Shown in pieces: positions 1,128 to 28,226 of a stretch of 36,014 bases of DNA. Position 1 is the first letter of the stretch. Each line of letters begins with the position of its first letter. The position numbers were made by a program, and so were the translations under genes. Source of the DNA: Candidatus Brennerbacteria bacterium (GTDB taxonomy: Bacteria > Patescibacteriota > Minisyncoccia > UBA6257 > GWB1-50-10); the NCBI GenBank assembly GCA_016183535.1, contig JACPEK010000006.1:1-36014 (forward strand), written 5' to 3'. The notes under the pieces are model-generated. The model did not search any database. It saw only the letters and a program-made list of their open reading frames with translations, and was not told where the DNA came from.

Positions 1128-1314
1128 ATGCGAAATCGTGAATTCGTTTTTACCCCCAAAATTGAATACAAACAAGTCGCCGAGCGAAGCGAGGCGAACC
1201 AAAACCGCTTGATTTTTCCTTTCTGGTGCAGTATTCTTGAATTAGTCCGAACGCATTTTGGCGAAAAAATTTCCCCGCGAAAAAATTCAGAATTTGCGGC
1301 GAAGCCGCACCGAT
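1128..1314 (+). mobile_element. attP-like site: recombinase 3' tail + TGGTGCA core + distal arm
   Basis: 1175-1230 matches 28103-28158 at 55/56 nt; 1224-1314 is the exact reverse complement of 2306-2396; reads ...NRLIFPFWC|SILELVRTHF. Confidence 0.7.
1224..1314 (+). repeat. 91-bp perfect inverted repeat, left copy
   Basis: Base-by-base reverse complement of 2306-2396. Confidence 0.95.
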
Positions 1315-1451
1315 CAAAACCGCCAAAGAGCCCGGAAAAACAATCGGCTCGAACCATGTTTTAGGAGAAAGCAGAAAAGAAAAAATTTTAATCCTTGAAT
1401 TCATAATATTTAGGTCACAAAACAGCAGGAATGCTGATTTTTTGTTTGGGC

Positions 1452-1480
1452 TTGACATACAGCCCGTAATATGCTATTCT
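1452..1480 (+). promoter_or_regulatory. sigma70 promoter for the 1574 gene
   Basis: TTGACA-17 nt-TATTCT with extended TG; AGGAGG at 1563-1568 before ATG 1574. Confidence 0.7.
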
Positions 1481-1573
1481 TAACAGCATCGGAATCATGG
1501 TAAAAACCTTGTAAATCCGGTAACCCCGCCACGAGGGCATCGTGGTAACCCAGTACATTGACAGGAGGCCAAG

Positions 1574-1876
1574 ATGGCAAAGCTCAACATGGCGGTTTCG
1601 CACCGCCTCGCGCAGGACGAAGCACTCAAGCGCGTCAAGACGCTCCTCGGCGAGGTGAAAAGCCAGTTCGCTGACAAGATCACCGATCTGCGCGAGGAGT
1701 GGAACGGCAACACGGGAAAGTTCAGTTTCTCGGCGATGGGATTCTCCGTCTCCGGGACCCTGACCGTGAACCCGTCGGGGGTGGAACTCTCCGGAAATCT
1801 CCCTTTCGCGGCGTCGTTCTTCAAGGGGAAGATCGAATCCACGATTCGGGAGCGAGCGGAAACTCTGCTCGCCTGA
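1574..1876 (+). CDS. Polyhydroxyalkanoic acid system family protein (PHA_gran_rgn-like)
   Basis: 100 aa, VSHRLAQDEALKRVK...EWNGN...SGTLTV...LPFAASFFKGKIE pattern; promoter, SD and terminator present. Confidence 0.75.
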   Translation: MAKLNMAVSHRLAQDEALKRVKTLLGEVKSQFADKITDLREEWNGNTGKFSFSAMGFSVSGTLTVNPSGVELSGNLPFAASFFKGKIESTIRERAETLLA

Positions 1877-1897
1877 CGAGTCCTCGTCCTGTTCATC

Positions 1898-1930
1898 GAA
1901 GGGGTCCAGCGTTCGCGTTGGCCCCTTTTC
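1898..1930 (+). terminator. Probable intrinsic terminator
   Basis: GAAGGGGTCCAGC...GTTGGCCCCTTTTC hairpin followed by a T-rich tract. Confidence 0.55.
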
Positions 1931-1968
1931 ATTTGTAATAACATTGAATTTGTGATAATATTTTTCAT

Positions 1969-2262
1969 ATGGAACCTAAGGAAAAATTTGAAATTTCGGA
2001 AATGGAAAAGTTTTTGGAAAAGCATGAACTTCGTCATATTCATTCCGATGTTTTTGAAAGAATCATAACTTTGGTAATTGCCGCTTTAGGTTTAATCGCC
2101 GCCCTCGCGTGGGACGAAGCTCTAAGGCATATTTTTGAAAACCTATTCGGTGGCAAAGGAACTTTGTTGGAAGAAATTTCATATGCGGTAGTGATAACAA
2201 CTCTTGCGGCGTTTATTTCGGTGCATTTGGGAAAACTTTTTTCCAAACGCAAGCGGGAATAA
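1969..2262 (+). CDS. Small two-TM membrane protein (DUF5654-like)
   Basis: LVIAALGLIAALAWDEAL...YAVVIT motif; AT-rich relative to the core genes. Confidence 0.7.
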   Translation: MEPKEKFEISEMEKFLEKHELRHIHSDVFERIITLVIAALGLIAALAWDEALRHIFENLFGGKGTLLEEISYAVVITTLAAFISVHLGKLFSKRKRE

Positions 2263-2305
2263 TCCAAATTTCTTAAATGCCGCCAAAGAAAAATTGGAAA
2301 TTGTT

Positions 2306-2396
2306 ATCGGTGCGGCTTCGCCGCAAATTCTGAATTTTTTCGCGGGGAAATTTTTTCGCCAAAATGCGTTCGGACTAATTCAAGAATACTGCACCA
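2306..2396 (-). repeat. 91-bp perfect inverted repeat, right copy (attR-like island boundary ending in TGCACCA)
   Basis: Reverse complement of 1224-1314; its TGCACCA end is followed directly by a terminator hairpin and core genes. Confidence 0.95.
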
Positions 2397-2400
2397 AAAT

Positions 2401-2424
2401 AAAAACACCCAATCGGGTGTTTTT
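2401..2424. terminator. Bidirectional intrinsic terminator
   Basis: AAAAACACCC-AATC-GGGTGTTTTT. Confidence 0.8.
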
Positions 2425-2776
2425 ATTTATCGTCTTCCTCGCGCTCCTCGGAGATCTTCACCTCTTCCTCAAGCGACGCGAGACCTTTTCCGTTGCCATT
2501 TCCATTTGTGCCATTCTGTTTCAATTTTCTCATTTTCTCGCCGAGGGTGTTATCAAACTTCATAAGAAACACGCGGAGCGTCCGGACTACACGCTCGAAA
2601 AATACCACGAGTTCTTCGTCCGCACGCTCGAGATAGTGCATCACCCATTCTGGTAACATATGGCGTGGTCCCGGCGTAGGATCCGTCTCGTCGAGGCGCG
2701 GAAGGGTGCGCGCCACAAGGTAGAGGAGGGCGCCTCCGCTCACCACAAGTACCATCTGGAGAATAAACTCGGCCAT
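2423..2776 (-). CDS. Hypothetical protein with N-terminal TM helix
   Basis: 117-aa ORF co-oriented downstream of tsf, hydrophobic N-terminus. Confidence 0.75.
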   Translation of the reverse strand: MAEFILQMVLVVSGGALLYLVARTLPRLDETDPTPGPRHMLPEWVMHYLERADEELVVFFERVVRTLRVFLMKFDNTLGEKMRKLKQNGTNGNGNGKGLASLEEEVKISEEREEDDK

Positions 2777-2802
2777 TTTGATTAGGAGTTAGGCTTTAGG
2801 CG

Positions 2803-3243
2803 CTAGAGAGAAAATCTCGAAAAGCGGGCGACTTGAATGTTCTCCCCCACCTTTGCCGCCACGCCCTTCACGAGCTGATCCACGGTCTTCGCGGAGTCCT
2901 TCATATATTCCTGGGCAAGAAGCGTCTCGGGCGAGTCGGGATCCATCGCCGCAATCTGCATAGAAAGTTCCTTCGCGAGATTTCTGAAATCATCCGTGCG
3001 GGCCACGAAATCCGTCTCACATCGAAGCTCGAGAAGCACTCCCACGCGATCCATGTGGACATACGAATAGATGAGCCCCGCACCGGTCGCGCGCTCCCCC
3101 TGCTTTGCCGCTTTTGCGAGACCGCGTTCGGCAATCAGTCGCTTCGCCTTTTCGTAATCACCGCCGGCGTCCGCAAGCGCGCGTTTACAATCCATCACGC
3201 CGGCACCGGTTTCCTCGCGAAGTTTTATGATACCGTCCTGCAT
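2803..3243 (-). CDS. tsf: Elongation factor Ts (short form)
   Basis: IKLREETGAGVMDCKRAL, ELRCETDFVA, GENIQVARF; start moved to ATG 3243 just after the rpsB stop. Confidence 0.95.
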   Translation of the reverse strand: MQDGIIKLREETGAGVMDCKRALADAGGDYEKAKRLIAERGLAKAAKQGERATGAGLIYSYVHMDRVGVLLELRCETDFVARTDDFRNLAKELSMQIAAMDPDSPETLLAQEYMKDSAKTVDQLVKGVAAKVGENIQVARFSRFSL

Positions 3244-3248
3244 ACGCC

Positions 3249-3986
3249 TTATGTGGCGGAAACGCCCGTCGGTACCTCCTTTTCTATTCGTTCCGCAACG
3301 GGCGCGAGCGCACGTGTGAGTTCCCCCATCACCCACTCGATACTCGATTTCGCGTGGTCGTTGGCAAAAATCGGACACTCTACCACGCCAGGATCATCGT
3401 CAGTGTCAATAATGCTAACCACCGGAATCTTCATTTTTTTTGCCTCGGCGACAGCGGTCCCGTGCACACGTGCGTCCACCACAAAGAGAAGATCGGGACG
3501 CTTTGTGAAATCTTCCAACCCGCGAAACGTCCGCGCCATTTTCCCCACCTCCACCTCGCGCTTGAGTTGCTCCTTTTTGGTATAGCGAGAGAATTCTTTC
3601 GCCGCGTGTTTTTCCTTCATATCGAGAAAGTGTTTCACACGCCCCGCGATGACGGAAAAATTTGTAAGCGTGCCGCCGAGCCAACGACCGGTGACAAAAG
3701 GAAATGAGAATCGTTCCGCAAAAGATTCGACGGCCGCGCGAGCCGAGGGGACAGTGCCTACCATGAGAATCATACCGCGTTTTTCGAGTATGCCCGCCAT
3801 AATCTCAATAGCTTTCGCCAAACCCGCGATCGTCGCCTCGGGATCGATGAGTTCGATTTCGTTCTTAGTTGCCCCAATATACGGGCGCATTTTCGGATGC
3901 GTTTTGGACTTTGTATGGCCAAAAAGCACCCCTAGTTTCGCCATCTCGAGGATTTTTTCTTCGTGCGTCGCGGCGGTGTCAGTCAT
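3249..3986 (-). CDS. rpsB: 30S ribosomal protein S2
   Basis: GVLFGH...HPKMRPYI, RWLGGTLTNF, IIDTDDDP, ANDHA. Confidence 0.97.
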   Translation of the reverse strand: MTDTAATHEEKILEMAKLGVLFGHTKSKTHPKMRPYIGATKNEIELIDPEATIAGLAKAIEIMAGILEKRGMILMVGTVPSARAAVESFAERFSFPFVTGRWLGGTLTNFSVIAGRVKHFLDMKEKHAAKEFSRYTKKEQLKREVEVGKMARTFRGLEDFTKRPDLLFVVDARVHGTAVAEAKKMKIPVVSIIDTDDDPGVVECPIFANDHAKSSIEWVMGELTRALAPVAERIEKEVPTGVSAT

Positions 3987-4014
3987 AAAAAATCGCTACG
4001 CAAGTAGCGGTAGA

Positions 4015-4043
4015 AGTATAAGAGAAACGATCACGCTTGGCAA
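4015..4043 (-). promoter_or_regulatory. sigma70 promoter of rpsB-tsf
   Basis: TTGCCA-17 nt-TATACT on the minus strand. Confidence 0.65.
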
Positions 4044-4065
4044 GTCATCTCACGCCTTAGCGAAA

Positions 4066-4707
4066 TTATGAGCGCCTTCCGTGTTTCGTCCTCCACTGCG
4101 AGATTTTTTTGTGGTCGCCACTTAAAAGAACTGGCGGCACCGACCATTTTAAAAACTTCGGTGGGCGAGTGTAGACCGGATACGAACCTTTCCGCTCTTC
4201 GAGCGACTCGCGTTTTCCCAACACTCCCGGGATATGGCGCGCAACCGCCTCGATGACCGCGAGCGCGGGGAGTTCGCCGCCTGCAAGCACGAAGTCACCC
4301 ATCGAGAGCTCCTCGTCCGCGAGGTGTTCCGCAACCCGCTCATCCACCCCCTCATAACGCCCCGCGATAAGGATAAGGCGATCATAGCGGGCGAGCCGTC
4401 GCGCGGTCTTTTGATTGAACGTTTTGCCGCGCGTGGAGAAAAGAATCACCCGAGTTTTGAGTTTTAAGTTTTGAGTTTTGGGTTTCTGAAGAGCGCGGTA
4501 AATCGGCTCCACCCGCATCACCATGCCGGGACCTCCGCCGAACGGCGTATCGTCTATTTTGTTATGCCGCATGCGCGAGAAAGCGCGCACATCAACTGCT
4601 TCCACGACAAGAAGTTTTTTCTTCGCGGCGCGGCCAAGCAGGGCCGCTTTCGCGTAATGTTCGACAAGTTGGGGAAAGGCGGTAAGAACGGAAAAGATCT
4701 TCATCAC
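4066..4707 (-). CDS. trmD: tRNA (guanine-N1)-methyltransferase
   Basis: DDTPFGGGPGMVM, GRYEGVDERV, SMGDFVLAGGE, YTRP, LLSGDH. Confidence 0.97.
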   Translation of the reverse strand: MMKIFSVLTAFPQLVEHYAKAALLGRAAKKKLLVVEAVDVRAFSRMRHNKIDDTPFGGGPGMVMRVEPIYRALQKPKTQNLKLKTRVILFSTRGKTFNQKTARRLARYDRLILIAGRYEGVDERVAEHLADEELSMGDFVLAGGELPALAVIEAVARHIPGVLGKRESLEERKGSYPVYTRPPKFLKWSVPPVLLSGDHKKISQWRTKHGRRS

Positions 4708-5018
4708 GCCTCGCTTGTTGTTTCTCCCGCAACAAAACGAGATGAGCGCACGCTCCCTTCCGGTTCCTCAATTTTCAAATTCACACGGGCGTTTTCTTTT
4801 ACGCCGACGATGCGCAGGAGGGAACGGATGGTCTTCGCGGTCGAACCCTGGCGACCCACTACCTGCCCCATGTCATGCGGATTCACCCTCAAGGTCAGCA
4901 ACACGCCACGGTCATCCACCTTTCTTTCCACCTTTACGTCTTCAGGATGATCCACGATGGACTTCACGAGAAACTCGAGAAATTCTCGGTCTTTTCGATT
5001 TACATCATTCATTGTCAT
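4704..5018 (-). CDS. khpA: KH-domain RNA-binding protein
   Basis: DMGQVVGRQGSTAKTIR; lies between rpsP and trmD. Confidence 0.9.
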   Translation of the reverse strand: MTMNDVNRKDREFLEFLVKSIVDHPEDVKVERKVDDRGVLLTLRVNPHDMGQVVGRQGSTAKTIRSLLRIVGVKENARVNLKIEEPEGSVRSSRFVAGETTSEA

Positions 5019-5043
5019 CTCGGCGGTGTCTTGGGTGGCCTTG

Positions 5044-5427
5044 TTACTGCGATGATGTCGTTTCCGGTTTGTTCTCTTCAGCGGGTTTCGCGATCGGCGC
5101 GGATACAGCCACCGACGCTTCTACTTTTTTATCCGTGGCGGCTTCAGTGGAAACGGACTGCTTAGACTTCCCATGCAAGGGAATTTTCTTTCCTCTCACC
5201 ACACCCGTTTTCACGAGCAGATTCCACGCGGTGGGGGTTGGTTGAGCGCCGACCGAAAGCCAATACGACGCGCGCACCGTGTCTACGCTACGCGTATTGG
5301 TTCGCGGGTTCACCCATCCGAGATCCTCGACGAATCTCCCTTGCACTTTCGAACGCTTCTCCGCCACCACCACGCGAAACGACGCCTGGTGCTTCTTGCC
5401 AATTCGTTTCAGTTTAATAGCCAACAT
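5044..5427 (-). CDS. rpsP: 30S ribosomal protein S16
   Basis: MLAIKLKRIGKKHQASFRVVV...WLSVGAQPT. Confidence 0.97.
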   Translation of the reverse strand: MLAIKLKRIGKKHQASFRVVVAEKRSKVQGRFVEDLGWVNPRTNTRSVDTVRASYWLSVGAQPTPTAWNLLVKTGVVRGKKIPLHGKSKQSVSTEAATDKKVEASVAVSAPIAKPAEENKPETTSSQ

Positions 5428-5535
5428 GTAAGTAATTTGTAACCGGTAATTAATAATTAGTCAACTCTTCCATTCTTGGAAGTAATAAACATCACCTCAC
5501 AACATTCTCACATTCTATAGAATGTTGTGAGGTGT

Positions 5536-7695
5536 TCATCGCTCCAGCTTGAGCGAGAGCACCTTCGATATTCCGTCGTCTTCCATGGTAATACCATAGA
5601 GCGCGTCCGCGGCTTCCATGGTGGCACGATTGTGTGTCACGATAATGAACTGCGTTTTTTTCGCGAATTCCTTGACGAGCTCGGCAAACCGCGCCGCATT
5701 CACCTCGTCCAAGGGAGCGTCTATTTCATCCAAAACCAGAAAGGGCGGCGGCGACACCGCGATCAAGGCGAAGAGCGCGGCTAATGATACTAACGATTTC
5801 TCGCCGCCCGAAAGCATTTCCAAACTCGTGATTTTCTTCTTGGGGAGCGAAAGTTCTATTTCTACGCCCGCCGAGAGTTCGGGGTCTTCTTGCGACTCTT
5901 CCAAGACCGCTTCTCTCTCACCTCCCATAGGCGCGCCTTCCTCTTCTTCCTTCTTTGGCGCGGGTGGCTTCGTGAGCTTCAGGTACGCCTTACCGCCGCC
6001 GAACATAAGACGAAAATATGTATGGAACGAATCGTTCACCTCGCGGAACGCTTTTTTGAAATCGTTGTGTATCTTCTGATCCAAGTCGCGGATGAGTTTT
6101 TCGAGATCTCTCGTCGCCTTCGTCACGTCCTCATGTTCGCGCGAGAGGAAAGCGTAGCGGGTTTCCGCCTCGTCCGCCTCCTTTACAAGCGCCTGGTCTA
6201 TCTCCCCTATCGCCGCGAGTTCACCCCGCAAGCGGAGCGTTTTCCGTTCCGCGTCCTCGCCCGGCGCCTCCTTCGGCGCGGGAAGTTTTACAAGCTCGCC
6301 TCCGTCGCGTCCGGTCGCCGCCCATGCGTGCTGAAGCTCTTCCATCTGGAGCGAAAATCTTTCGCGCGCGAATGCTTTCTCTTCAAGCGCGCGCTCGAGC
6401 GCGCGGAGCTCGTTCTTTTTCATCTCGAGAATTTCTACCTGCGCGCGAAATGTCTCGGTCGCCGTGCGCTCAGCTTCGATAAACCTTTCCTCGTCCGCCT
6501 CGAGGGTTACGAAATCATTTTCAAGCGCCGCAAGTTCCTCACGAAGCGGGGTGAGGCGCGCGCTACGAGGCAAATCCTTCTTTTCTTTGTTTTCTAAAGT
6601 CTCTTCGATGCGCACGATCATTTCCTTCAACGCTTTTCGTATCGCCGGTAGGTCCTCGAGCGCGAGCATGCGCTTCGCGTCCTCCGCCGCCCGCGAAAGG
6701 AGCACACCGAGCTCGGCGGCGCTCTTTTCGCTTCGCGCCTCCTGTTTTGCTAAAAGTTCTTCCTCCACCTCGAACCGCGCGAGGTCGCGCTCGAGCGCGC
6801 GTCGGCGTTCGCCCACCGTCCGTTTTTTTTCCCGAAGCGCCTGGCGAGCCGCTTCGCTCAAGGAGTCCGCGGTAAACGAGCGGCGTTTATCTTCAAGTAT
6901 TCGTATCTCTTCCTCTTTCGCTTTTCGTTCCGCCGCGAATTTCGCGTGGGGCACTTCCGCTTCCGCGCTCGCGCGCGCGAGCGTGTGAAACCGTGCGCCG
7001 AAATACACGTCTTCGAGCGCTTTAAGCGTTCCTTCTATCTCGCTTCGGCGCTCGAAGCGGGACTTTTGTTTCCGGAGAAAGCGTACGTGCGGGGCAAGCT
7101 CTTCAAGCATCGCTTGTACCCTTTCCATATTCACGAGACTCGCCGCGAGCTGACGCTCCGCTTGCTCTTTTTTCAGCCGATACTCGCGGAGCCCGAGAAT
7201 CTCTTCAATCATCGCGCGCCGCTCACGAGGAGTCGAACGGACAAAGAGGTCGCCCTGCCCTTGCCCCACCATTGTGAGTCCGCGACTCCCGAGACGCGCG
7301 CGCGCGAGCATCGGAATCAAATCTTTAAGGCGCACCTCATCGCTGTTCATATAAAACGAGGAAGCTCCCGACCGATCCGTTTTCCGCTCAATAACCACCT
7401 CCGGCGCATCCACTGGAAAAAGGCGCGGATGATTCTTAAAAACAAGCGAAACGCGGGCGAAACCGGCCGCAGAGCGCTTCGGCGTACCGGCGAAAATCAA
7501 ATTTTCGAGCGCGCCTCCGCGGAGCTCGGAGGCGACTCGCTCCCCCAATACCCAGCGGAGCGCATCAATAACGTTCGACTTCCCGGATCCGTTCGGCCCT
7601 ACGATCGCCGTTACGCGAGAAGGAAATTCGAATACCGTCTTCGGCGCGAACGATTTAAAACCTTGAAGCTCGATGCGCTCGAGGAAATGATCCAT
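5536..7695 (-). CDS. smc: Short SMC-family ATPase (719 aa)
   Basis: GFKSF, Walker A GPNGSGKSN, Q-loop, coiled coils, LSGGEK, VLDEIDAPLD, THN. Confidence 0.88.
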   Translation of the reverse strand: MDHFLERIELQGFKSFAPKTVFEFPSRVTAIVGPNGSGKSNVIDALRWVLGERVASELRGGALENLIFAGTPKRSAAGFARVSLVFKNHPRLFPVDAPEVVIERKTDRSGASSFYMNSDEVRLKDLIPMLARARLGSRGLTMVGQGQGDLFVRSTPRERRAMIEEILGLREYRLKKEQAERQLAASLVNMERVQAMLEELAPHVRFLRKQKSRFERRSEIEGTLKALEDVYFGARFHTLARASAEAEVPHAKFAAERKAKEEEIRILEDKRRSFTADSLSEAARQALREKKRTVGERRRALERDLARFEVEEELLAKQEARSEKSAAELGVLLSRAAEDAKRMLALEDLPAIRKALKEMIVRIEETLENKEKKDLPRSARLTPLREELAALENDFVTLEADEERFIEAERTATETFRAQVEILEMKKNELRALERALEEKAFARERFSLQMEELQHAWAATGRDGGELVKLPAPKEAPGEDAERKTLRLRGELAAIGEIDQALVKEADEAETRYAFLSREHEDVTKATRDLEKLIRDLDQKIHNDFKKAFREVNDSFHTYFRLMFGGGKAYLKLTKPPAPKKEEEEGAPMGGEREAVLEESQEDPELSAGVEIELSLPKKKITSLEMLSGGEKSLVSLAALFALIAVSPPPFLVLDEIDAPLDEVNAARFAELVKEFAKKTQFIIVTHNRATMEAADALYGITMEDDGISKVLSLKLER

Positions 7696-8405
7696 TATGA
7701 AAAATGCGCCAGTGCGCGCTCGGCCGCCGCTGTCTCCGCTTCTTGTTTCGAGGGTCCCTTCCCTTCCGCTAACTTCTCATCTCCCGCGAACACTCCGACT
7801 TCGAATTCTTTCGCGTGGTCGGGACCGGACTCCGAAAGAACGCGATAGGTCGGCGTAATCTTTCGCCGTTCCTGGAGCGTTTCTTGGAGCGCGCTCTTTG
7901 GATCTTTGTAGAGCTTGTTCACCATCACCTCTTCAAGGCGAGACGCCACGAGCGCATTCACCGTCTTTCGGGCCGTTTCATATCCCCGATCAAGATACAC
8001 CGCGCCGATGAGCGCCTCGAAAGCGTTCGCAAGGATCACCTCGCGCGCGCGACCCGCGGCGCCGGATTGAGGCCCGAGCGACGCAAGCGCTTCGCCCTTC
8101 GAGAGGTGCAGAAAATCTCCGAGGCGGATGTCTTCCGCCACCGCCGCGAGCATCTGGTAGTTCACCAGAGCCGCGCGGATGCCGGTGAGACGCCCCTCGT
8201 CGTCGTGCGGAAATTTCTCAAAAAGAAATTCCGTGATCGCGAGTTCGAGCACCGCATCACCGAGAAACTCGAGACGTTCATTATGCGAACGCTTCCAGGA
8301 GGGATGCTCGTTCAGATAAGAACGGTGAGTAAGCGCTTCTTCGAGAAACGCAACGTTCTTGAATAACACGCCGATCGCTTCTTCCAAATGTTCCCGCTTG
8401 GTCAT
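7695..8405 (-). CDS. rnc: Ribonuclease III
   Basis: HNERLEFLGDAVL, EALIGAVYLD, dsRBD GPDHAKEF. Confidence 0.97.
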   Translation of the reverse strand: MTKREHLEEAIGVLFKNVAFLEEALTHRSYLNEHPSWKRSHNERLEFLGDAVLELAITEFLFEKFPHDDEGRLTGIRAALVNYQMLAAVAEDIRLGDFLHLSKGEALASLGPQSGAAGRAREVILANAFEALIGAVYLDRGYETARKTVNALVASRLEEVMVNKLYKDPKSALQETLQERRKITPTYRVLSESGPDHAKEFEVGVFAGDEKLAEGKGPSKQEAETAAAERALAHFS

Positions 8406-9147: not shown

Positions 9148-9785
9148 ATGGTTCTTACTTTAAGAAAATTTTTGAGAAAGGTCAAACGGTGTACGGCGGA
9201 CGGGCCATGCCGCGCGAGCGCACGGCGATGAAGGTCGGTGCCATAACCTTTATGCGCCGCGAAGCCGTAGGCGGGGTAGCGCGCATGGAGCCGCGCCATC
9301 GCGCGATCACGCGTTACCTTTGCCACGATGGACGCGAGTTGTATCTCGGAAACTTTCTCGTCCCCCCGCACTATCGTAAGAGTCACACGCGGCGTCAATC
9401 CGTCATGCGGACTAATAAAAAGCCCCCCGTCCAGAAGAACGGCGAGCGACGAAGGCGTGAGTTCGGCGGTCGCGACCAAACGTTCATAGGCGCGCGTGGC
9501 GGCAAGGTTCGCCGCGTTCGTGATGTTCACGCGATCCACGGTGCGTGGCAAGACCCGCGCGGTCGCGAATACCACATTTCCCGCACGCGCATGTTCCCGT
9601 ACCGTTTCGAACCAACATTCCCGCGCGCGAAGCGTAAGGCGCTTGGAATCACGGAGGGGGGCACGCGGCGCTTCTTTGAAAAACCGCTTCCGATCCAAAA
9701 AAGCGAACGCCGCCACCGTCACCGAACCGCACAAGGCCCCGCGCCCCACTTCATCCACGCCGATCACCAAGTGTTTTTTCTCCAT
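9144..9785 (-). CDS. rnhB: Ribonuclease HII
   Basis: GVDEVGRG, DSKRL, ASIVAKVTRD, HKGYGT, HRLTF; start moved to ATG 9785. Confidence 0.95.
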   Translation of the reverse strand: MEKKHLVIGVDEVGRGALCGSVTVAAFAFLDRKRFFKEAPRAPLRDSKRLTLRARECWFETVREHARAGNVVFATARVLPRTVDRVNITNAANLAATRAYERLVATAELTPSSLAVLLDGGLFISPHDGLTPRVTLTIVRGDEKVSEIQLASIVAKVTRDRAMARLHARYPAYGFAAHKGYGTDLHRRALARHGPSAVHRLTFLKNFLKVRTI

Positions 9786-13661: not shown

Positions 13662-15461
13662 ATGCGCAACGAAAAAAATAAAATCGACAACGTCCGGCAT
13701 TCCCTCGCGCACCTCTTGGCGTGCGCCGTTCTCCAAAAATATCCAAAAGCGAAGCTCGGAATAGGACCAACGATTGAGCATGGTTTTTACTACGACATCT
13801 TGTTCACAAATACGCACGAATCGGGCCACAAATTGGCACGAATCACTGATGCTGATTTCCCGGAGCTTGAAAAAACGATGCGGAAGCTTATTGCGCAGAA
13901 ACTCCCTTTTTCCGGCAGGAAAGTGACGCTCGCGGAAGCGAAAAAAATATTTAAGGACCAGCCGTTCAAACTCGATCTCATCAAAGCATTTACGAGTCCG
14001 CCAGCTGGCGGAAAGAAACAACCATTGACGGTCTACAAAACCGGAGAAGTATTTCTCGATTTATGCAGAGGAGGACATGTAAAAAATACTTCCGAGATTG
14101 ACCCCGACGCTTTCACACTTACCCATCTCGCGGGCGCGTACTGGCGCGGGAGCGAGAAGAATCCCCAACTTACCCGCATTTACGGCCTCGCGTTCAACAC
14201 GAAGAAAGAGCTTGATACGCATCTCGCGATGCTCGACGAGGCGAAAAAGCGCGACCACCGAAAGCTTGGTGTGGAGCTTGAACTCTTCACTTTCGACGAG
14301 CGTGTGGGGAAGGGACTCCCGCTTTGGCTCCCGAAAGGAACCGCGGTAAAAAACGAGATTGAACGTCTCGCAATGGAGAAAGAGGAGCAATACGGTTATG
14401 TTCGCGTCTCAACGCCGCACCTCGCGAAGCAATCCCTCTACGAAACCTCGGGCCACCTTCCTTACTACGCGGACGGCATGTACCCACCTATGAAAATGGA
14501 CGATGGCGCATACTACCTGAAGGCAATGAACTGTCCCCACCATCACGTGATCTACGCAAGCCGCTCTCGGAGCTACCGTGACCTTCCGCTCCGCCTCGCG
14601 GAATACGGCACCGTGTACCGGAATGAGCTTTCGGGTACCTTGGCGGGGCTTCTGCGGGTTCGGATGCTCTCGATGAACGACGCGCATATTTATTGCCGCA
14701 AAGACCAGATCGAGGAAGAATTCAAGCGCGTACTCGCGCTCAACCTCGAGTATTTTAAACTCTTCGGCCTCAAAAACTATTCGTTCCGCCTTTCCCTCGG
14801 CGATCCGAAAAACAAAGAAAAATTTGTGAACGAGCCGGCGAACTGGAAATATGCCGAAGGCGTGCTCCGCAAGATTCTCAAAGCGTCCGGCGTGAAGTTC
14901 GCGGAAACAAGGGGTGAGGCCGCGTTCTACGGGCCTAAAGTGGATGTGCAATTCACTTCGGTGATCGGCCGCGAGGAAACGATGTCCACTATCCAGCTCG
15001 ACTTCGCGGCGAAGAAACGCTTCAACCTCGCGTATCAAGACAAGGGCGGCAAAGAAAATCACGAGGTTTTTGTGATCCATCGCGCACCACTCTCGACTCA
15101 CGAACGCTTCATGGCGTTCCTCTTGGAGCACTATGCGGGTGATTTTCCCGTATGGCTCGCACCTGTGCAAGTAAAAGTGCTCCCCGTCGCCAACGCGCAC
15201 ACGGCGTATGCGGAAAAAGTGTTCGCGGCGCTCATAGAACGGCGCATCCGCGCGGAACTGTCCCCTGCCAATGAAACGCTCGGTAGGCGCATCCGCGCCG
15301 CGGAGCTCCAGAAAATTCCCTATCTTCTCGTCGTGGGAGAAAAAGAGCAGTCCGCACAATCAGTGAACGTGAGAAAACGACACGAGAAAGAAACAAAAAA
15401 CGTATCGCTGGAGCGGTTTACTAAAACGCTCGCCGAAACAATAGCGGCGAGGAAAGAGTAG
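13662..15461 (+). CDS. thrS: Threonine--tRNA ligase (no TGS domain)
   Basis: RHSLAHLLA, DLCRGGH, KAMNCPHH, GLLRVR, FYGPKVD, IHRAPL; start placed 7 nt after TATAAT. Confidence 0.97.
   Translation: MRNEKNKIDNVRHSLAHLLACAVLQKYPKAKLGIGPTIEHGFYYDILFTNTHESGHKLARITDADFPELEKTMRKLIAQKLPFSGRKVTLAEAKKIFKDQPFKLDLIKAFTSPPAGGKKQPLTVYKTGEVFLDLCRGGHVKNTSEIDPDAFTLTHLAGAYWRGSEKNPQLTRIYGLAFNTKKELDTHLAMLDEAKKRDHRKLGVELELFTFDERVGKGLPLWLPKGTAVKNEIERLAMEKEEQYGYVRVSTPHLAKQSLYETSGHLPYYADGMYPPMKMDDGAYYLKAMNCPHHHVIYASRSRSYRDLPLRLAEYGTVYRNELSGTLAGLLRVRMLSMNDAHIYCRKDQIEEEFKRVLALNLEYFKLFGLKNYSFRLSLGDPKNKEKFVNEPANWKYAEGVLRKILKASGVKFAETRGEAAFYGPKVDVQFTSVIGREETMSTIQLDFAAKKRFNLAYQDKGGKENHEVFVIHRAPLSTHERFMAFLLEHYAGDFPVWLAPVQVKVLPVANAHTAYAEKVFAALIERRIRAELSPANETLGRRIRAAELQKIPYLLVVGEKEQSAQSVNVRKRHEKETKNVSLERFTKTLAETIAARKE
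13997..14012. repeat. 16-bp palindrome TCCGCCAGCTGGCGGA, copy inside thrS
   Basis: Identical copies at 27791-27806 and 30253-30268. Confidence 0.9.
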
Positions 15462-22838: not shown

Positions 22839-22865
22839 ACGATGGCGCCGTACCTGACTACCAAG

Positions 22866-24252: not shown

Positions 24253-25845
24253 TTATTCACGGGACAGGTTATCCGGCGGAACACGATAGTACGTCAAAAG
24301 AAACTCCGCGAGGCTTCGAAATGCCGGCACGACCGTAATCCCGGCAAGCTCTCCCACTTTGGGACGGTCGAGTTTCACCAGTACGACGAAACGCGGATCA
24401 GACACCGGCGCCGTACCGACAAACGTATGAATAAGTTCATCGGAATAGCCGCCGTTTTCGAAATCCGGAATGAACGCAGTGCCGGTTTTTCCGGCCACCC
24501 GATAACCCGCGATCACCGCCACCTTGTTCACGTTGACCGTCGATTCCATCATACGGAGCACCGCCGCCGCCGCTTCTTTCGAAACCGCCCGCCCTGCCCT
24601 ACGCGACGGAGCGTCCTTAAGAATCGAGGGGGTGAGCCGCACGCCTCCGTTCGCGAGGGTCGCATAGGCGTTCACAAGCTGGAGCGGCGTTACCGCCGTT
24701 CCCTGGCCGAACGAGGCGGTGGCAAGTTCGATGGATTTCGTGTCGGGCTTGGTGAGATTTTTCAGACTGCCCGCAACTTCCTCCGGCGCGCCGATTCCCG
24801 TTACCGCGCCGAATCCGAATTTTTCCAGATAGTCCACATACCGCTCGCGGCCGAGACGCTCCGCCGCAAACACGCTACCAGTGTTGATGGAACGCTCAAT
24901 CACGTTCGTCATCGTTACCGTACCGTACACTCTGTTATCAAAATTATGAATCGTTCTTCGGTCGCGCGTGACCGACCCCTTATCCATATAGGTCGTCTCC
25001 GGCGTAACGGCGCCCGCGTCGAGCGCCGAGGCCATCGTAATCGCTTTCATCACCGATCCGGGCTCGTAGACGTACGAGAACGCGGGATTTAAAAACCTTG
25101 CGATGGGCGCCACGCGATACTCGTTCGGGTCGAAATCCGGCTTCGACACCACCGCGAGGAGTGCGCCGGTTTTCGGATCCTCCACTATGACGGTGCCTCC
25201 CGTCGCGCCGTATTCGCCGATGAGACGCGCGAGCGCGCCTTCCGCTTCCGTCTGCACAAAGGGGTCAATCGAGAGGTGGCGATCTTCGCCTTCCGCGAGC
25301 GCATCCTCAAAATATTTTTCGGCTCCGTAGAGCCCCCGTGGAACGTTCGTGTCCGCATTCAATCCCACAAAACCCATAAGATGGGAAGCGAACGATCCGC
25401 GCGGATAGGAACGATACTGCTTTGTGCCGGTATAAATTCCTTCTGGCGCTTCCCGGAGAGCGGCGACCAGTTCCGATGATATTTTCTCTGCAAGAAGCTT
25501 AAAAAGATTCTTCTTCTCCGAGAATGTTTTTTCGAGCGAATCCGCCGAGACGCCGAGGAGCGGCGCGAGAAATCCCGCGGCTTCCTTCGCGTCCTCAATC
25601 TCTTTCGGCACCGCGTACACCACCGATTCGTTACGGTTCACTGCGATCGGAACCGCCGTGTCGTTCCGGTCGGTAAAAAAAATACTTCCGCGGCGAAGCG
25701 AGAGTTGTTGCAAAGCTTCCGCGCGCGCGGAGGCGCGCGCGGAGTGTTCCTCCCCATGGAGAATCTGGAGTTGGTAGAGGTTGAACCCTACAAGTACAAA
25801 AAGAAGCGCAAAACCGAAATTCAATAAGAAGAAACGGAGCGCCAT
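24253..25845 (-). CDS. ftsI: Class B penicillin-binding protein (FtsI-like)
   Basis: YEPGSVMK (SxxK), SIN (SxN), GKTGTA; in the mraZ-rsmH cluster. Confidence 0.85.
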   Translation of the reverse strand: MALRFFLLNFGFALLFVLVGFNLYQLQILHGEEHSARASARAEALQQLSLRRGSIFFTDRNDTAVPIAVNRNESVVYAVPKEIEDAKEAAGFLAPLLGVSADSLEKTFSEKKNLFKLLAEKISSELVAALREAPEGIYTGTKQYRSYPRGSFASHLMGFVGLNADTNVPRGLYGAEKYFEDALAEGEDRHLSIDPFVQTEAEGALARLIGEYGATGGTVIVEDPKTGALLAVVSKPDFDPNEYRVAPIARFLNPAFSYVYEPGSVMKAITMASALDAGAVTPETTYMDKGSVTRDRRTIHNFDNRVYGTVTMTNVIERSINTGSVFAAERLGRERYVDYLEKFGFGAVTGIGAPEEVAGSLKNLTKPDTKSIELATASFGQGTAVTPLQLVNAYATLANGGVRLTPSILKDAPSRRAGRAVSKEAAAAVLRMMESTVNVNKVAVIAGYRVAGKTGTAFIPDFENGGYSDELIHTFVGTAPVSDPRFVVLVKLDRPKVGELAGITVVPAFRSLAEFLLTYYRVPPDNLSRE

Positions 25846-26132
25846 GGGGAGAAAGTGAGGTATTCCGGATTCCGTTCTACGACGAGTCCGCGCTCCGCCG
25901 CGAGCGATTTGAGCTTCGAAGAATCCAGTTTCTTATAGAGCGCGTTTTTGAGATCCGCATTCGCTTCGCGCGCGCGCTCCACTGCTTTCTTTAATTCTCC
26001 CACTTCATAGCGCTCGGCCGCGAGCGCGTTGTACTCGAGTATATAAAATCCGCCGCCCACAATAAGGAGCGCGAAGAGCGAAACGAGAAAATATCTCAAT
26101 GTGAAATGTTGGTGAGGTTTGATGATAGTCAT
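25821..26132 (-). CDS. FtsL-like bitopic coiled-coil protein
   Basis: TM + coiled coil + AAERGLV tail; position between rsmH and the PBP. Confidence 0.6.
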   Translation of the reverse strand: MTIIKPHQHFTLRYFLVSLFALLIVGGGFYILEYNALAAERYEVGELKKAVERAREANADLKNALYKKLDSSKLKSLAAERGLVVERNPEYLTFSPWRSVSSY

Positions 26133-26169
26133 GAAATTCGGCGAGGAGAAAGTGGTTGGTAGTGAGTAG

Positions 26170-27042
26170 TCAAAGCATTTGCAAGGCTCTTAATTTTGCG
26201 GAGCGACTACGGGGATTTGCGAGTATTTCGGCGCGGGAAGGTTTTACCACATGCTTCGTGAGTAGCTTGGCCCTGCCGGACTTCGCGAGTGTTTTGAATC
26301 CTTCTTTTACAAACCGGTCTTCGAGGGAATGAAATGTGATGACGACCACTCGTCCGCCCGAGCGCACAATTTCCGGAAGGCGCGCAATGGTCGTCCGAAC
26401 ATTTTCAAGTTCATGGTTCACCGCGATGCGGAGCGCCATAAAGACTTTTGTCGCGGGGTGGATCTTTCCTTTTCTCGTGCCCCCCGCGCGCGCCACCACC
26501 TCCGCAAGCGCGCCGCTCGTGCGGATCGGCTGTTTCCTACGCGCCAAGACGATAGCGTGCGCGTACTTTGCGGCGTTCGGCTCCTCGCCGTGTTCACGGA
26601 AGATACGCGAAAGTTCGGCAACCGACGCGCCGGCAACCAATTTTGCGGCGGTGATGCCGCACCGCGTGTCATACCGCATGTCGAGCAACTCGTCGCGTTG
26701 AAAAGAAAATCCTCTCCCGCCCGCCTCAAGCTGGTCGGATGAAAGCCCAAGATCAAGGAGGAGTCCATCCGTCTTCGGCAATTTCTGCCGTTCGAGAATT
26801 GCGGGAAGCGCGGCGTACGAATCGTGCACAAAAATGGCGTTCGCGGAGTTCGCGAGCGCACGCTTCGCGCGCGCGAGCGCGTCCGCATCCGCATCCACTC
26901 CGAGTAGTCGCCCGCGCGGGCCGATCCTCCGGAGTATTTCCTTCGCGTGTCCGCCGCCGCCGAGGGTACCGTCAATCACAAAGTCGCCCTCATGGAGATT
27001 CAACGCCGCAATCGTTTCCTCTAAAAGAACGGGAGCATGCAT
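26170..27042 (-). CDS. rsmH: 16S rRNA m4C1402 methyltransferase
   Basis: HAPVLLEE, DGTLGGGGH, DLGLSS, LDMR, HPATKVFMALRIAVN, FHSLEDR, NPRSRSAKLR. Confidence 0.97.
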   Translation of the reverse strand: MHAPVLLEETIAALNLHEGDFVIDGTLGGGGHAKEILRRIGPRGRLLGVDADADALARAKRALANSANAIFVHDSYAALPAILERQKLPKTDGLLLDLGLSSDQLEAGGRGFSFQRDELLDMRYDTRCGITAAKLVAGASVAELSRIFREHGEEPNAAKYAHAIVLARRKQPIRTSGALAEVVARAGGTRKGKIHPATKVFMALRIAVNHELENVRTTIARLPEIVRSGGRVVVITFHSLEDRFVKEGFKTLAKSGRAKLLTKHVVKPSRAEILANPRSRSAKLRALQML

Positions 27043-27051
27043 GTACGACCT

Positions 27052-27483
27052 TTATATGCCGAGCGCTCCCAGTTGCTCGGCGATTTCGTCGGAAGCGGAT
27101 TCCGTCCGCGATTTGTATCTCTTCCACGTCCCTTCATCCCATACCTCCAAACGGTTCATCACTCCCGCCACCACGGCGAGTTTGGAAAGTCCGGCATACT
27201 CGCGAAGGTAATCGGGAATGAGGATGCGTCCCTGCCCGTCGAGTTCGACGTCCGAGGCGCCCGCCAGCATGAGACGCGCGAAGGCCCGTGAGTTTGCCTG
27301 CGCGAGTGGCAAGGCGATGAGTTTCTCCGCAAGCTTCTCCCACTCTTTCATGCCGAAAACAAAAAGGCAGTGATCGAGACCGCGCGTGATGATGGCGCCT
27401 TCCTTAAGTTGGACGCGGAACTTCGCGGGAAGCGCAATACGCCCCTTCGGGTCTATCGAATGTTTGTATTCGCCGAGGAGCAT
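27052..27483 (-). CDS. mraZ: Transcriptional regulator MraZ
   Basis: IDPKGRIALPAKFR, LDGQGRILIP, RLEVW. Confidence 0.97.
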   Translation of the reverse strand: MLLGEYKHSIDPKGRIALPAKFRVQLKEGAIITRGLDHCLFVFGMKEWEKLAEKLIALPLAQANSRAFARLMLAGASDVELDGQGRILIPDYLREYAGLSKLAVVAGVMNRLEVWDEGTWKRYKSRTESASDEIAEQLGALGI

Positions 27484-27495
27484 AATGTTTTATAG

Positions 27496-27561
27496 TTATC
27501 CCCAGATTGAGGCCTTATCCACACGGTTATCCACAATTCCCCACTTCTTGCCACTATTCTA
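27496..27561 (-). promoter_or_regulatory. mraZ control region: MraZ boxes plus DnaA boxes
   Basis: GTGG repeats at 10-nt spacing (CCAC at 27531, 27541, 27551); TTATCCACA at 27515 and 27527, TTATCCCCA at 27496; TG-n-TAGAAT -10 at 27556-27561. Confidence 0.75.
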
Positions 27562-27715
27562 GCACACTTCCCTCCCCGTCAACACAAACAAACACCCTGT
27601 CAGTTCATGGGCTGGCGGGGTAAAAGTTCTTTATTTTACTATCGTTCTAAAATTTTCAGTGGCGAGTTATCAACATATTGTTCACCCGGCGTACATAAGA
27701 AGAAAGAAGTTAGTT

Positions 27716-28158
27716 TTGTGCGGTATTCTTGAATTGGTCCAAATCGCTTTCGCTCTTCGATAAGCTCGTGGCGAGGAAAGCCCCCGTGAATCCGCCAGCT
27801 GGCGGACGGAAAGGTGGCGCCTGCCCGCCGAAGCCTCGACGCGGGCCGAGAGCCGCGCCGCTGACAATTTCCATTCTCATGTCCCAAAAGGTCGCGCTAA
27901 ACGAAAAAATCACCGACTTTGAGACAAAAGGGTTGTCTTGGCTCGAACCGGCTCGTGAGTTCGTAAAATCCTTAAATCAAGCCGCGAATCTGGTTCAAAC
28001 AGATAATCTTTCCGAATTGCCAACATTTCTGAAAAACATAGGCTCGAACCATATCTTGCAGAATCGCCAATTCGTTTTCACCCCCAAAATCCAATACAGA
28101 TTAGTCGCCGAGCGGAGCGAGGCGAACCAAAACCGCTTGATTTTTCCTTTCTGGTGCA
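27716..28158 (+). mobile_element. Remnant serine-recombinase element integrated at tRNA-Val
   Basis: Degenerate distal arm TGTGCGGTATTCTTGAATTGGTCC at ~27717; recombinase C-terminal frame LMSQKVALNEKITDF...IGSNHIL...IFPFWC (~27876-28157) running into the tRNA 3' end. Confidence 0.75.
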
Positions 28159-28226
28159 CCCTGCAGGGATCGAACCTGCTACCTCTCCGATGTGAACGGA
28201 GCGTTCTACCAATGAACTAAGGGTGC
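28152..28226 (-). tRNA. tRNA-Val(CAC)
   Basis: GCACCCT/AGGGTGC acceptor, CTCCG-TT-CAC-AT-CGGAG anticodon arm, GCAGG-TTCGATC-CCTGC T arm, encoded CCA. Confidence 0.96.

What the first reader, a model, noticed from the sequence alone, without database searches (positions are those of the whole stretch)
1128..28226. tRNA-targeting large serine recombinase with the att site inside its own 3' coding end (C-terminus swaps on integration)
Seen: the same recombinase tail (...VAERSEANQNRLIFPFWC; 55/56 nt identical at 1175-1230 and 28103-28158) diverges exactly after TGGTGCA, the antisense of the tRNA acceptor end plus CCA. At 1231 it continues into a non-tRNA arm (SILELVRTHF...). At 28159 it continues antisense through tRNA-Val (TLQGSNLLPLRCERSVLPMN*). 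The distal arm also occurs alone at 2306-2396 and, degenerate, at ~27717. Inference: the window holds attP-, attL- and attR-like states of one system with a core of only about 7 bp, and integration rewrites the recombinase C-terminus, a possible built-in directionality or stability switch. tRNA targeting and intragenic att sites are better known for tyrosine integrases (e.g. SSV1-type) than for serine recombinases.
Basis: partly seen in the sequence, partly recalled or inferred. Interest (0 to 1): 0.8.

Follow-up and report, generated by a model that had tools for sequence, protein, structure and literature searches.

The report
Two tRNA-targeting serine-recombinase mini-elements
The window holds not one 27-kb island but two separate copies (one disabled, one almost erased) of a tiny mobile element of ultra-small groundwater bacteria, whose serine recombinase carries its attachment site in its own last codons and inserts at the very end of tRNA genes.

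Summary
The 1-1086 recombinase lies on the minus strand. It is cut by the contig start and has lost codons 2-47, which include the catalytic serine. The "tail" at 1129-1230 is not its 3' end. It is a conserved inverted spare copy of the gene's last ~33 codons, joined through TGGTGCA to arm X, giving an attP-like site about 40 nt upstream of the gene. An inverted arm X at 2294-2397 ends this ~3-kb element. A second, decayed element lies at tRNA-Val (27710-28158). The 25 kb between them is core chromosome (dnaE, gyrB, thrS, ftsI, mraZ).

In 22 of 25 complete homologous loci the ORF runs antisense into a tRNA 3' end. Two congeners show a clean empty site for a sister copy. The arm-X motif YGRAC sits 5 bp further out than the tRNA T-arm, matching the attP/attB rule of large serine integrases.

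The C-terminus does change on integration, but a function for this is unsupported: other arms carry the same DNA motif in another reading frame.

This scan had already noted the family on other parts of this genome. Five literature searches found no published description.

The parts
1..1086 (-). Element A: large serine recombinase gene. It is cut by the contig start at its 3' side and carries an in-frame deletion of codons 2-47, which include the catalytic serine.
   Evidence: Pfam Resolvase profile positions 46-145 only, plus Recombinase and Zn_ribbon_recom. Full-length paralogues start with about 47 more residues. DNA alignment.
1087..1128 (-). Recombinase upstream region (promoter / 5' UTR piece 'p').
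   Evidence: Homologous to the stretch directly upstream of the ATG of the C3 paralogue (1087-1457 vs C3:60132-59764, 85.6%).
1129..1223 (+). T': inverted spare copy of the last ~32 codons of a recombinase gene (P arm of the spare attP).
   Evidence: In sister loci T' is identical to that locus's own 3' end up to the core.
1224..1230 (+). Core TGGTGCA of the spare attP (antisense of tRNA ...GCACCA).
1231..1326 (+). Arm X, inner copy (P' arm), with YGRAC starting at +18 from the core.
   Evidence: (I1).
1315..1364 (+). Short recombinase-derived pieces inside the cargo module: u (1315-1336, like codons ~46-53) and b (1337-1364, 28 nt identical to C3:61468-61495).
   Evidence: table 5c (a 17-letter joint between 2305 and 1315 in other copies); u read by eye.
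1574..1876 (+). Cargo gene 1, PHA_gran_rgn family (54% G+C).
   Evidence: PF09650, E 1.4e-15.
1969..2262 (+). Cargo gene 2, DUF5654 small membrane protein.
   Evidence: PF18898, E 1.6e-16.
2277..2305 (+). Piece r: 29 nt identical to codons ~31-40 of two full-length paralogues. The window's own gene has lost this part.
   Evidence: C1:105261-105289, C3:60224-60252, 100%.
2294..2390 (-). Arm X, outer inverted copy.
   Evidence: I1; 91 nt, 100%.
2391..2397 (-). Core at the outer end (attL-type junction). Host DNA and a terminator-like hairpin follow from 2398.
   Evidence: G+C rises from 2400; homology with congeners starts at 2427-2434.
27710..27743 (+). Element B relic: degenerate core plus the first 26 nt of arm X (attL relic). 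The YGRAC motif is lost.
   Evidence: D9, I3. Host homology with G002 ends near 27687-27690.
27744..27879 (.). G+C-rich filler inside the relic, with a copy of a dispersed palindrome (27788-27812).
   Evidence: (D5, I7).
27880..28151 (+). Element B relic: last ~93 codons of a recombinase gene.
   Evidence: (27876-28187 matches residues 394-497, 68%).
28152..28226 (-). tRNA-Val(cac). Its last 7 bases (28152-28158) are the core of the attR-type junction.

Best explanation
The window contains two independent insertions of one family of minimal (~2.7-3 kb) integrative elements of Patescibacteria.

A complete element has this order: host, core, arm X, 0.6-1.1 kb cargo, inverted arm X, core, inverted copy T' of the gene's last 33-45 codons, ~40 nt, the recombinase gene, its own tail T, core, antisense tRNA.

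Inferred mechanism. The large serine recombinase recombines an attP made of T (its own last codons, the P arm), a 4-7 bp core and arm X (the P' arm) with the 3' end of a tRNA gene. The tRNA's acceptor end and T-arm serve as the B' arm. The crossover falls in the last acceptor bases, the discriminator or CCA, so the tRNA stays whole and the codons after the core are replaced by tRNA antisense.

Element A (1-2397) is a dead copy: it has no catalytic serine and its tRNA end lies beyond the contig start. Element B (27710-28158) is a 0.45-kb relic at tRNA-Val. The DNA between them is chromosome.

Shown: the anatomy, its recurrence, one empty site and the att-arm geometry. Inferred: the recombination itself, its direction, and any role of the spare attP.
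For: Own genome:
- Eight matches to the recombinase.
- Tails read antisense into tRNA-Leu(gag), Leu(caa), Arg(tct), Tyr and Val.
- T' equals T up to the core in the C3 and C5 copies.
- The same layout as in the window occurs at C3 and C5.

Relatives:
- 24 of 61 genomes have a match at E<=1e-30.
- Of 30 loci, 5 are cut by an end. 22 of the other 25 overlap a convergent tRNA 3' end, across 9 tRNA types.
- 16 of 30 loci have the T/T' inverted repeat (85-138 nt, mostly 98-100%; 82-92% in 3 loci).

Empty site: in G002 and G001 tRNA-Arg(tct) is followed directly by the flank that in G000 lies 2,681 nt away, with a 5-nt overlap.

att geometry:
- YGRAC starts at +14 in the tRNA arm and +19 in arm X in 13 of 15 tRNA-linked loci (15/19 and 14/20 in the other two). 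The window gives 13 and 18.
- This equals the 5-bp inward shift of the zinc-ribbon motif in attB versus attP reported for LI integrase (PMC3783163, passages).

Protein:
- Resolvase, Recombinase and Zn_ribbon_recom domains.
- The nearest solved structures are SPbeta and A118 integrases.
- Long helical hairpin at residues 331-411, pLDDT ~90.

Host nature of 2.4-27.7 kb.

Abundance:
- At least 7,778 database proteins at E<=1e-50.
- Conserved arms reach summed contig depths of 300-8,000, against 8-27 for this copy's cargo and flank, in four groundwater runs.
Against: - No junction of an excised circle, and no empty site for either window copy, was seen. The runs available are contigs only.
- Element A's tRNA end is missing.
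- The only candidate for that end, the C3 end (tRNA-Tyr plus tail), overlaps the window start by 118 nt at only 86% identity.
- Congeners have tRNA-Tyr in the opposite orientation next to the flanking gene.
- G002's tRNA-Val is followed by a 138-aa membrane-protein gene absent here, so it is not a clean empty site.
- Three of 25 complete loci have no tRNA at the ORF end (L012, L026, L027).
- The model does not explain why the spare attP exists.
Confidence: 0.8

Rival explanations
1. One reading: a single ~27-kb island bounded by the two tails, with the recombinase at its edge.
For: The 102-nt direct repeat at 1129-1230 and 28057-28158.
Against: The interval has host G+C (52-61%, against 40-44% in the element) and encodes SMC, DnaE, ThrRS, GyrB, a PBP, RsmH and MraZ. 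It is syntenic with congeners at both edges. The recombinase lies outside the repeats and on the other strand. Each repeat belongs to its own small element, as in sister loci.
Confidence: 0.02
2. State-dependent C-terminus as a built-in directionality or stability switch. The enzyme made from the attP state, with an arm-X-encoded tail, would behave differently from the enzyme whose tail is tRNA antisense, replacing a separate directionality factor in a 2.7-kb element.
For: - After the core, arm X encodes a motif (x, hydrophobic, hydrophobic, x, x, hydrophobic, R, T, x, F/Y) in most of the 16 loci read, down to 43% recombinase identity.
- Column entropy follows the order codon position 2 < 1 < 3 (0.63, 0.96, 1.15) over 30 nt in 11 loci.
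- No directionality-factor gene fits in the element.
- Natural ORFs with this tail exist (L064, L067, L069).
- The tRNA-reading isomer dominates in genomes (22 of 25 loci).
Against: - The R-T codons coincide with the invariant DNA motif YGRAC.
- The entropy order is one of six possible, so it is weak evidence.
- A second arm type carries the same DNA motif one base out of frame and gives an unrelated peptide (L012/L063; about 12 of 120 database homologues by regex plus eye).
- Beyond ~10 residues the tails differ in frame and length.
- The 15 residues before the core are poorly conserved.
Confidence: 0.12
3. The nested inverted repeats make the element a DNA-inversion system as well. In the circular form there would be two inverted attP sites. 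Integration through either one, or inversion between T and T', gives two isomers.
For: - Within a locus the repeats are mostly 98-100% identical, while loci differ by 15-30%.
- Mirror isomers exist. In L067, on a 10.6-kb contig, the gene reads T-core-X and T' abuts a tRNA-like arm with B-type spacing.
- L064 also reads into arm X. L069 is a 2,702-nt contig that begins with T' and ends with arm X, the size of a circle.
Against: - Contigs running through 100-nt perfect inverted repeats can be mis-oriented by assemblers.
- No read-level evidence exists.
- The T'-side arm in L067 is not called a tRNA by Aragorn or Rfam.
Confidence: 0.3
4. The spare attP is an operator. Recombinase bound ~40 nt upstream of its own ATG, between the divergent recombinase and cargo promoters, would autoregulate both, as resolvase does at res.
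For: The position is fixed directly upstream of the ATG in all 16 loci with the repeat. A copy of the upstream piece p also precedes the cargo (in the window, by eye). After integration the spare is the only complete attP left in the element.
Against: An operator needs ~50 bp, not 100-138 nt of perfect identity plus a ~100-nt arm. No expression data exist. The analogy with Tn3/gamma-delta res is recalled, not tested.
Confidence: 0.2

Closest known systems
Large serine integrases of phages and elements (A118/LI, SPbeta SprA/YokA, phiC31, Bxb1)
   Same: Same domain set (Resolvase, Recombinase, zinc ribbon with a long helical insertion). They are the nearest solved structures. attP and attB share only a short core. 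The same outer motif lies 5 bp closer to the centre in the host arm than in the element arm.
   Different: Only distant in sequence (E 8e-7 to 5e-6). The target is the last bases of many different tRNA genes. The P arm is the enzyme's own last codons. The element is ~2.7 kb, has no visible directionality factor and keeps an inverted spare attP.
SSV1-type (type I) archaeal tyrosine integrases, with attP inside the int gene (recalled, no call)
   Same: The attachment site lies inside the integrase gene, the target is a tRNA gene, and integration changes the gene product.
   Different: They are tyrosine recombinases. Integration splits that gene into two distant parts. Here only the residues after the core, which are not conserved as protein, are exchanged, and the catalytic and DNA-binding domains stay intact.
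tRNA-gene genomic islands with tyrosine integrases (Islander, PMC4383910; abstract seen in the listing)
   Same: Site-specific insertion at a tRNA gene with the gene restored by element sequence.
   Different: That abstract attributes such islands to tyrosine integrases and describes a displaced tRNA fragment. Here the shared block is 4-7 bp at the extreme 3' end and no tRNA fragment is displaced.
Tycheposons of Prochlorococcus (bioRxiv 10.1101/2020.12.28.424599; passages read)
   Same: Small cargo-carrying elements at tRNA genes in streamlined genomes. 27 of 937 carry a large serine recombinase instead of a tyrosine one.
   Different: Many tycheposons carry replication genes. The passages read do not describe an attP within the recombinase gene or a spare inverted site. 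Supplementary tables were not available.
Yeast 2-micron plasmid and invertible segments of Hin/Gin type (recalled, no call)
   Same: Two inverted copies of the recombination site divide the element into two segments, and both orientations are found.
   Different: Different recombinase classes. Here the sites are also integration sites, and inversion itself is not shown.

Membership tests
Large serine recombinase (integrase) family | N-terminal resolvase-type catalytic domain with the nucleophilic serine | tested here: not met
   Not met for the window's own gene: Pfam Resolvase positions 46-145 only, and codons 2-47 are deleted. Met in the full-length paralogues on C3 and C5 (profile 2-145).
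Large serine recombinase (integrase) family | Recombinase domain (PF07508) followed by a zinc-ribbon domain (PF13408) | tested here: met
   (E 2.1e-14 and 2.2e-8). All 120 listed homologues carry the three domains.
Large serine recombinase (integrase) family | Coiled-coil motif inserted in the zinc-ribbon domain | tested here: inconclusive
   AlphaFold2 on a natural homologue (L067 ORF) gives two long helices, 331-378 and 384-411, with pLDDT ~90, after zinc-ribbon strands 284-298. The whole model is poor (mean pLDDT 60, pTM 0.34).
Large serine recombinase (integrase) family | attP x attB with only a short common core, giving hybrid attL and attR | tested here: met
   Empty sites in G002 and G001 for the C5 copy: a 2,681-nt insert with a 5-nt overlap. 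The cores shared by the three junctions are 4-7 nt. Recombination itself was not observed.
Large serine recombinase (integrase) family | Outer (zinc-ribbon) DNA motif 5 bp closer to the centre in attB than in attP half-sites (PMC3783163) | tested here: met
   Right-hand arms only: +14 against +19 in 13 of 15 loci; the window gives 13 against 18. Left-hand arms (T and the host side) show no shared motif.
Large serine recombinase (integrase) family | Excision needs a recombination directionality factor | not testable with these tools
   No candidate gene is visible in the element. The cargo is variable.
SSV1-type integrase arrangement (attP inside int) | Tyrosine recombinase whose gene is split by integration | tested here: not met
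   This is a serine recombinase. Only the post-core tail is exchanged.
Small serine DNA invertases (Hin/Gin) | ~190-aa resolvase/invertase with a C-terminal HTH acting on inverted sites with an enhancer | tested here: not met
   The protein is ~500 aa with Recombinase and zinc-ribbon domains. Inverted repeats are present, but inversion is not shown.

The most novel reading that the evidence does not exclude
A 2.7-kb element may control the direction of serine-integrase recombination without a separate factor. It would do so either through the enzyme's own state-dependent C-terminus or through the choice between two inverted attP copies. It would also read the universal tRNA T-arm as its outer DNA motif, so that changing a few acceptor-proximal contacts retargets it to any tRNA gene.
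Probability: 0.15. Interest if true: 0.85.

Novelty: new variant of a known kind. Interest (0 to 1): 0.62.

Why it matters
Large serine integrases are valued genome-engineering tools, yet tRNA genes are scarcely reported as their targets and their direction normally depends on a second protein.

This family is very abundant: at least 7,778 database clusters, and its conserved arms are far deeper than their host in groundwater metagenomes. It is minimal, with one enzyme and one cargo slot. Five literature searches found no description of it.

It offers three things:
- a natural series of integrases aimed at many different tRNA ends;
- a clear, testable half-site rule (a T-arm mimic shifted by 5 bp);
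- an unexplained spare attP.

It also matters for genomics of ultra-small bacteria. Four of the 12 contig ends of this assembly fall inside these elements, and gene callers report recombinases with arbitrary tRNA-antisense tails.

Tried and rejected
I rely.

2. Contigs of four runs laid on 1-3000. No joint shows excision or inversion of this copy. A contig joining 1446 to 2278 (X1, X2; side 27, letters between not known) may be another element's cargo. The joint 2305>1315 with 17 letters between is simply the uninterrupted 5' coding region of other copies.

3. Empty site for tRNA-Val in G002: the tRNA is followed there by a different gene.

4. Empty site for the C3 copy: the left flank has no match in the congeners and the right flank is rearranged.

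5. Joining the C3 end to the window start: 86% over 118 nt, so they are not the same gene copy. The C6 start belongs to the tRNA-Leu(caa) element instead.

6. Small-ORF idea, that T' plus arm X is a mini-gene: an ATG at the first T' codon occurs in only 3 of 17 sites examined (window, L011, L014), and also by eye in L067. Rejected as a general feature.

7. Rfam finds nothing inside either element. Arm X is not called a tRNA.

8. AlphaFold2 of a natural attP-state ORF: the tail helix 489-497 has pLDDT ~50 and its flanks <40, so there is no docking signal.

9. Viral contigs: 2 partial hits at contig ends, uninformative.

10. One search was an empty script. One search was a coordinate slip, corrected.

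Full report
OBSERVATION

- 1129-1230 and 28057-28158 form a 102-nt direct repeat at 89% identity (D1). blastn gives 97 nt at 90.7%, E 1.4e-33.
- Both copies end at TGGTGCA and diverge directly after it.
- At 28152-28226 the + strand is the antisense of tRNA-Val(cac).
- The arm that follows 1230 recurs at 2294-2399 and, degenerate, at 27718-27743 (I1, D9, I3).

Three points differ from the description.
- The 1-1086 ORF is on the minus strand with its ATG at 1086. The "tail" at 1129-1230 therefore lies upstream of that gene on the opposite strand.
- The 2294-2399 copy is inverted.
- The window begins at base 1 of its contig, so the recombinase gene is cut at its 3' side.

ANATOMY OF ELEMENT A (1-2397)

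The recombinase has Recombinase and zinc-ribbon domains but only positions 46-145 of the Resolvase profile. Full-length paralogues in the same genome carry about 47 more N-terminal residues, including the serine-bearing motif. The DNA alignment shows the ATG joined in frame to codon 48. This copy cannot be catalytically active.

Going right from the ATG, the order is:
- about 40 nt of upstream region;
- T' (1129-1223), a sense copy on the + strand of the last ~32 codons of such a gene;
- the core (1224-1230);
- arm X (1231-1326);
- two short recombinase-derived pieces;
- two cargo genes, PHA_gran_rgn and DUF5654;
- a 29-nt piece identical to codons ~31-40 of two paralogues;
- the inverted arm X and core (2294-2397).

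From about 2400 the G+C rises from 40-44% to 52-61%. Homology with two congeners begins at 2427-2434.

THE SAME ARCHITECTURE ELSEWHERE

The genome (605 kb, 6 contigs) has eight matches to this protein. Each copy whose 3' end is present reads antisense into a tRNA 3' end: Leu(gag), Leu(caa), Arg(tct), Tyr and, as a relic, Val.

In the C3 and C5 copies the upstream inverted copy T' is identical to that gene's own tail T up to the core. After the core, T continues into the tRNA and T' into arm X. The whole stretch 1087-1457 of the window aligns with the corresponding stretch upstream of the C3 gene.

Among 60 relatives plus this genome, 24 of 61 genomes have a match at E<=1e-30. Of the 30 loci fetched:
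- 5 are cut by an end;
- in 22 of the other 25 the ORF end overlaps the 3' end of a convergent tRNA, across nine tRNA types, down to 24% protein identity;
- the exceptions are L012, L026 and L027.

The T/T' inverted repeat (85-138 nt, mostly 98-100%; 82-92% in 3 loci) flanks the gene in 16 of the 30 loci. These are the closer relatives, at 43% identity or more. The arm-X pair encloses 0.6-1.1 kb of differing cargo in the closest group.

A clean empty site exists for the C5 copy. In both same-genus genomes tRNA-Arg(tct) is followed at once by the flank that in this genome lies 2,681 nt further on, with 5 nt of overlap.

The family is very large. At least 7,778 clusters reach E<=1e-50 among the 8,000 candidates scored. 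Where sources name them, they are recombinases of Patescibacteria lineages. In four groundwater runs the conserved arms reach summed contig depths of about 300-8,000, against 8-27 for this copy's cargo and flank. These are sums over organisms, not copy numbers.

HOW IT MOST LIKELY WORKS

The three junction types fit attL (host-core-X), attP (T-core-X) and attR (T-core-tRNA antisense) of a large serine integrase with a 4-7 bp common core.

The motif YGRAC is invariant in arm X and is also the antisense of the tRNA T-loop/stem.
- It starts at +19 after the junction in arm X and +14 in the tRNA arm in 13 of 15 tRNA-linked loci.
- The other two loci give 15/19 and 14/20.
- The window gives 18 and 13.

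Rutherford et al. (PMC3783163, passages read) report that the zinc-ribbon motif of LI integrase occupies half-site positions 16-24 in attP and 11-19 in attB, a 5-bp inward shift. That shift is what distinguishes the two sites. The element's P' arm thus looks like a T-arm mimic placed in the attP register. This would also explain how one family uses many tRNAs.

The left arms (T, and the host DNA downstream of the tRNA) share no such motif. That recombination occurs, and in which direction, is inferred, not shown.

DOES INTEGRATION REWRITE THE C-TERMINUS, AND DOES THAT MATTER?

Physically it does. After the core the ORF continues for 2-60 codons of tRNA antisense in the common arrangement, and into arm X in the attP arrangement.

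Points in favour of a function:
- Arm X encodes a recurrent ten-residue pattern ending R-T-x-F/Y in most of the 16 loci read.
- Column entropy over the first 30 nt is lowest at codon position 2 and highest at position 3, in 11 loci.

Points against:
- The R-T codons are the YGRAC motif itself.
- The entropy order has a one-in-six chance.
- The residues just before the core are poorly conserved.
- A second arm type carries the same DNA motif displaced by one base, so it is read in another frame as an unrelated peptide (L012/L063).

Among the 120 best database homologues my regular expressions gave these classes:

| Class | Count |
|---|---|
| tRNA-type tail | 74 |
| Stops within 4 residues of the core | 17 |
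| X-type tail | 3 |
| Second arm type | 8 |
| No recognisable core motif | 11 |
| Other | 7 |

By eye, one of the 8 second-type tails is really a tRNA tail. Six of the 7 "other" tails and none of the 11 without a motif read into a non-tRNA arm. About 15 of 120 therefore read into a non-tRNA arm.

AlphaFold2 of a natural attP-state ORF gives the tail a short helix at pLDDT about 50 with disordered flanks. I conclude that the DNA site, not the peptide, is what is conserved. A switch role remains possible but unsupported.

THE SPARE attP AND THE TWO ISOMERS

The internal inverted T'-core-X site is the part the simple model does not need. If the element excises as a circle, it would carry two inverted attP sites separating a recombinase segment from a cargo segment. 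Integration through either site would give mirror isomers.

A pattern search for a recombinase 3' end continuous with arm X found 7 metagenome and 2 genome contigs.
- L067, on a 10.6-kb contig, has the full gene reading T-core-X-cargo-X*. Its T' abuts a tRNA-like arm with the B-type spacing, though neither Aragorn nor Rfam calls a tRNA there.
- L064 shows the same gene-to-arm continuity.
- L069 is a 2,702-nt contig that starts with T' and ends with arm X, the size expected of a circle.
- L068 and L071 are defective copies with a longer T' and a 5'-truncated gene, like the window's copy.
- L063 has cargo modules on both sides of the gene and no tRNA within 14 kb.

Because perfect 100-nt inverted repeats can mislead assemblers, these isomers need read-level confirmation.

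The function of the spare site is open. It could be a second integration site, an inversion partner, or an operator at the recombinase promoter.

ELEMENT B AND THE DNA BETWEEN

At tRNA-Val the last ~93 codons of a recombinase gene (27880-28151) run into the tRNA. 0.4 kb upstream lies a degenerate core with 26 nt of arm X, which has lost YGRAC. G+C-rich filler lies between them. Homology of the left flank with the congener G002 ends near 27687-27690. This is a decayed second insertion.

The interval 2400-27700 encodes an SMC-like protein, DnaE, ThrRS, GyrB, a penicillin-binding protein, RsmH and MraZ.

UNRESOLVED

- In both congeners the gene next to element A's outer end lies beside tRNA-Tyr. 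In this genome tRNA-Tyr sits at the end of contig C3 with a recombinase tail.
- That tail overlaps the window's first 118 nt at only 86% identity.
- tRNA-Tyr is inverted relative to tRNA-Thr compared with the congeners.
- A tandem pair of elements, a rearrangement or an assembly break could explain this. I could not decide between them.

COMPARISON AND NOVELTY

By domains, core length and half-site geometry this is a large serine integrase system. Its nearest solved relatives are distant.

It differs in targeting the extreme 3' end of many tRNA genes, in using its own last codons as the P arm, in its minimal size, and in the spare inverted attP.

Literature searches:
- (listings only) found no description.
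- served the att-site rule.
- The tycheposon preprint (passages) reports large serine recombinases in 27 of 937 tRNA-associated elements.
- The Islander abstract attributes tRNA islands to tyrosine integrases.

Earlier notes of this scan describe the same family on other contigs of this genome. My reproduce their main points independently.

VERDICT

The island and the switch readings are not supported. The thing itself is a new variant of a known kind.

Noticed in passing
window 27500-27545 (between mraZ at 27052-27483 and element B): Two close DnaA-box-like nonamers, and further near-matches, are seen by eye in the sequence. The cumulative GC skew shows no turn here.
   Followed up: no
window 13994-14018, 27788-27812, 30250-30274: A dispersed ~20-nt G+C-rich palindrome occurs in three places (D5, I7, I10). 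One copy sits inside the decayed element.
   Followed up: no
window 29156-29274 (-): Ribosomal protein L10 leader (Rfam RF00557, 47.3 bits, just above its gathering score of 44).
   Followed up: no
L055:2484-3311 (G000 C3, between tRNA-Thr(tgt) and tRNA-Tyr): A 275-aa LAGLIDADG_3 homing-endonuclease-like ORF lies in a spacer that is 176 nt in a congener. tRNA-Tyr is inverted relative to tRNA-Thr compared with G001 and G002.
   Followed up: partly
G000 contig ends: C1 start, C1 end, C3 end, C6 start: Four of the 12 contig ends fall inside copies of this element family, so the elements are what fragments this assembly. The C4, C5 and C6 ends carry parts of other serine recombinases (the C6 end by eye).
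   Followed up: partly
L040:2968-3040 (G002) vs window 28152-28226: The congener's tRNA-Val(cac) gene does not encode CCA, while this genome's copy, which bears the element relic, does. By my count from the listing, about 21 of the 38 tRNA genes here end in CCA.
   Followed up: partly
L063 (G040:C4:34000-48000), 5363-8225: A relative of the element carries a second cargo module downstream of the recombinase. It is bounded by 267-nt perfect inverted arms and holds a TrmB-family regulator gene. No tRNA lies within 14 kb.
   Followed up: partly
L067:8775-8870 and 9240-9330: tRNA-like halves interrupted by similar ~40-nt G+C-rich insertions flank a normal tRNA-Lys. Neither is called by Aragorn or Rfam.
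   Followed up: no
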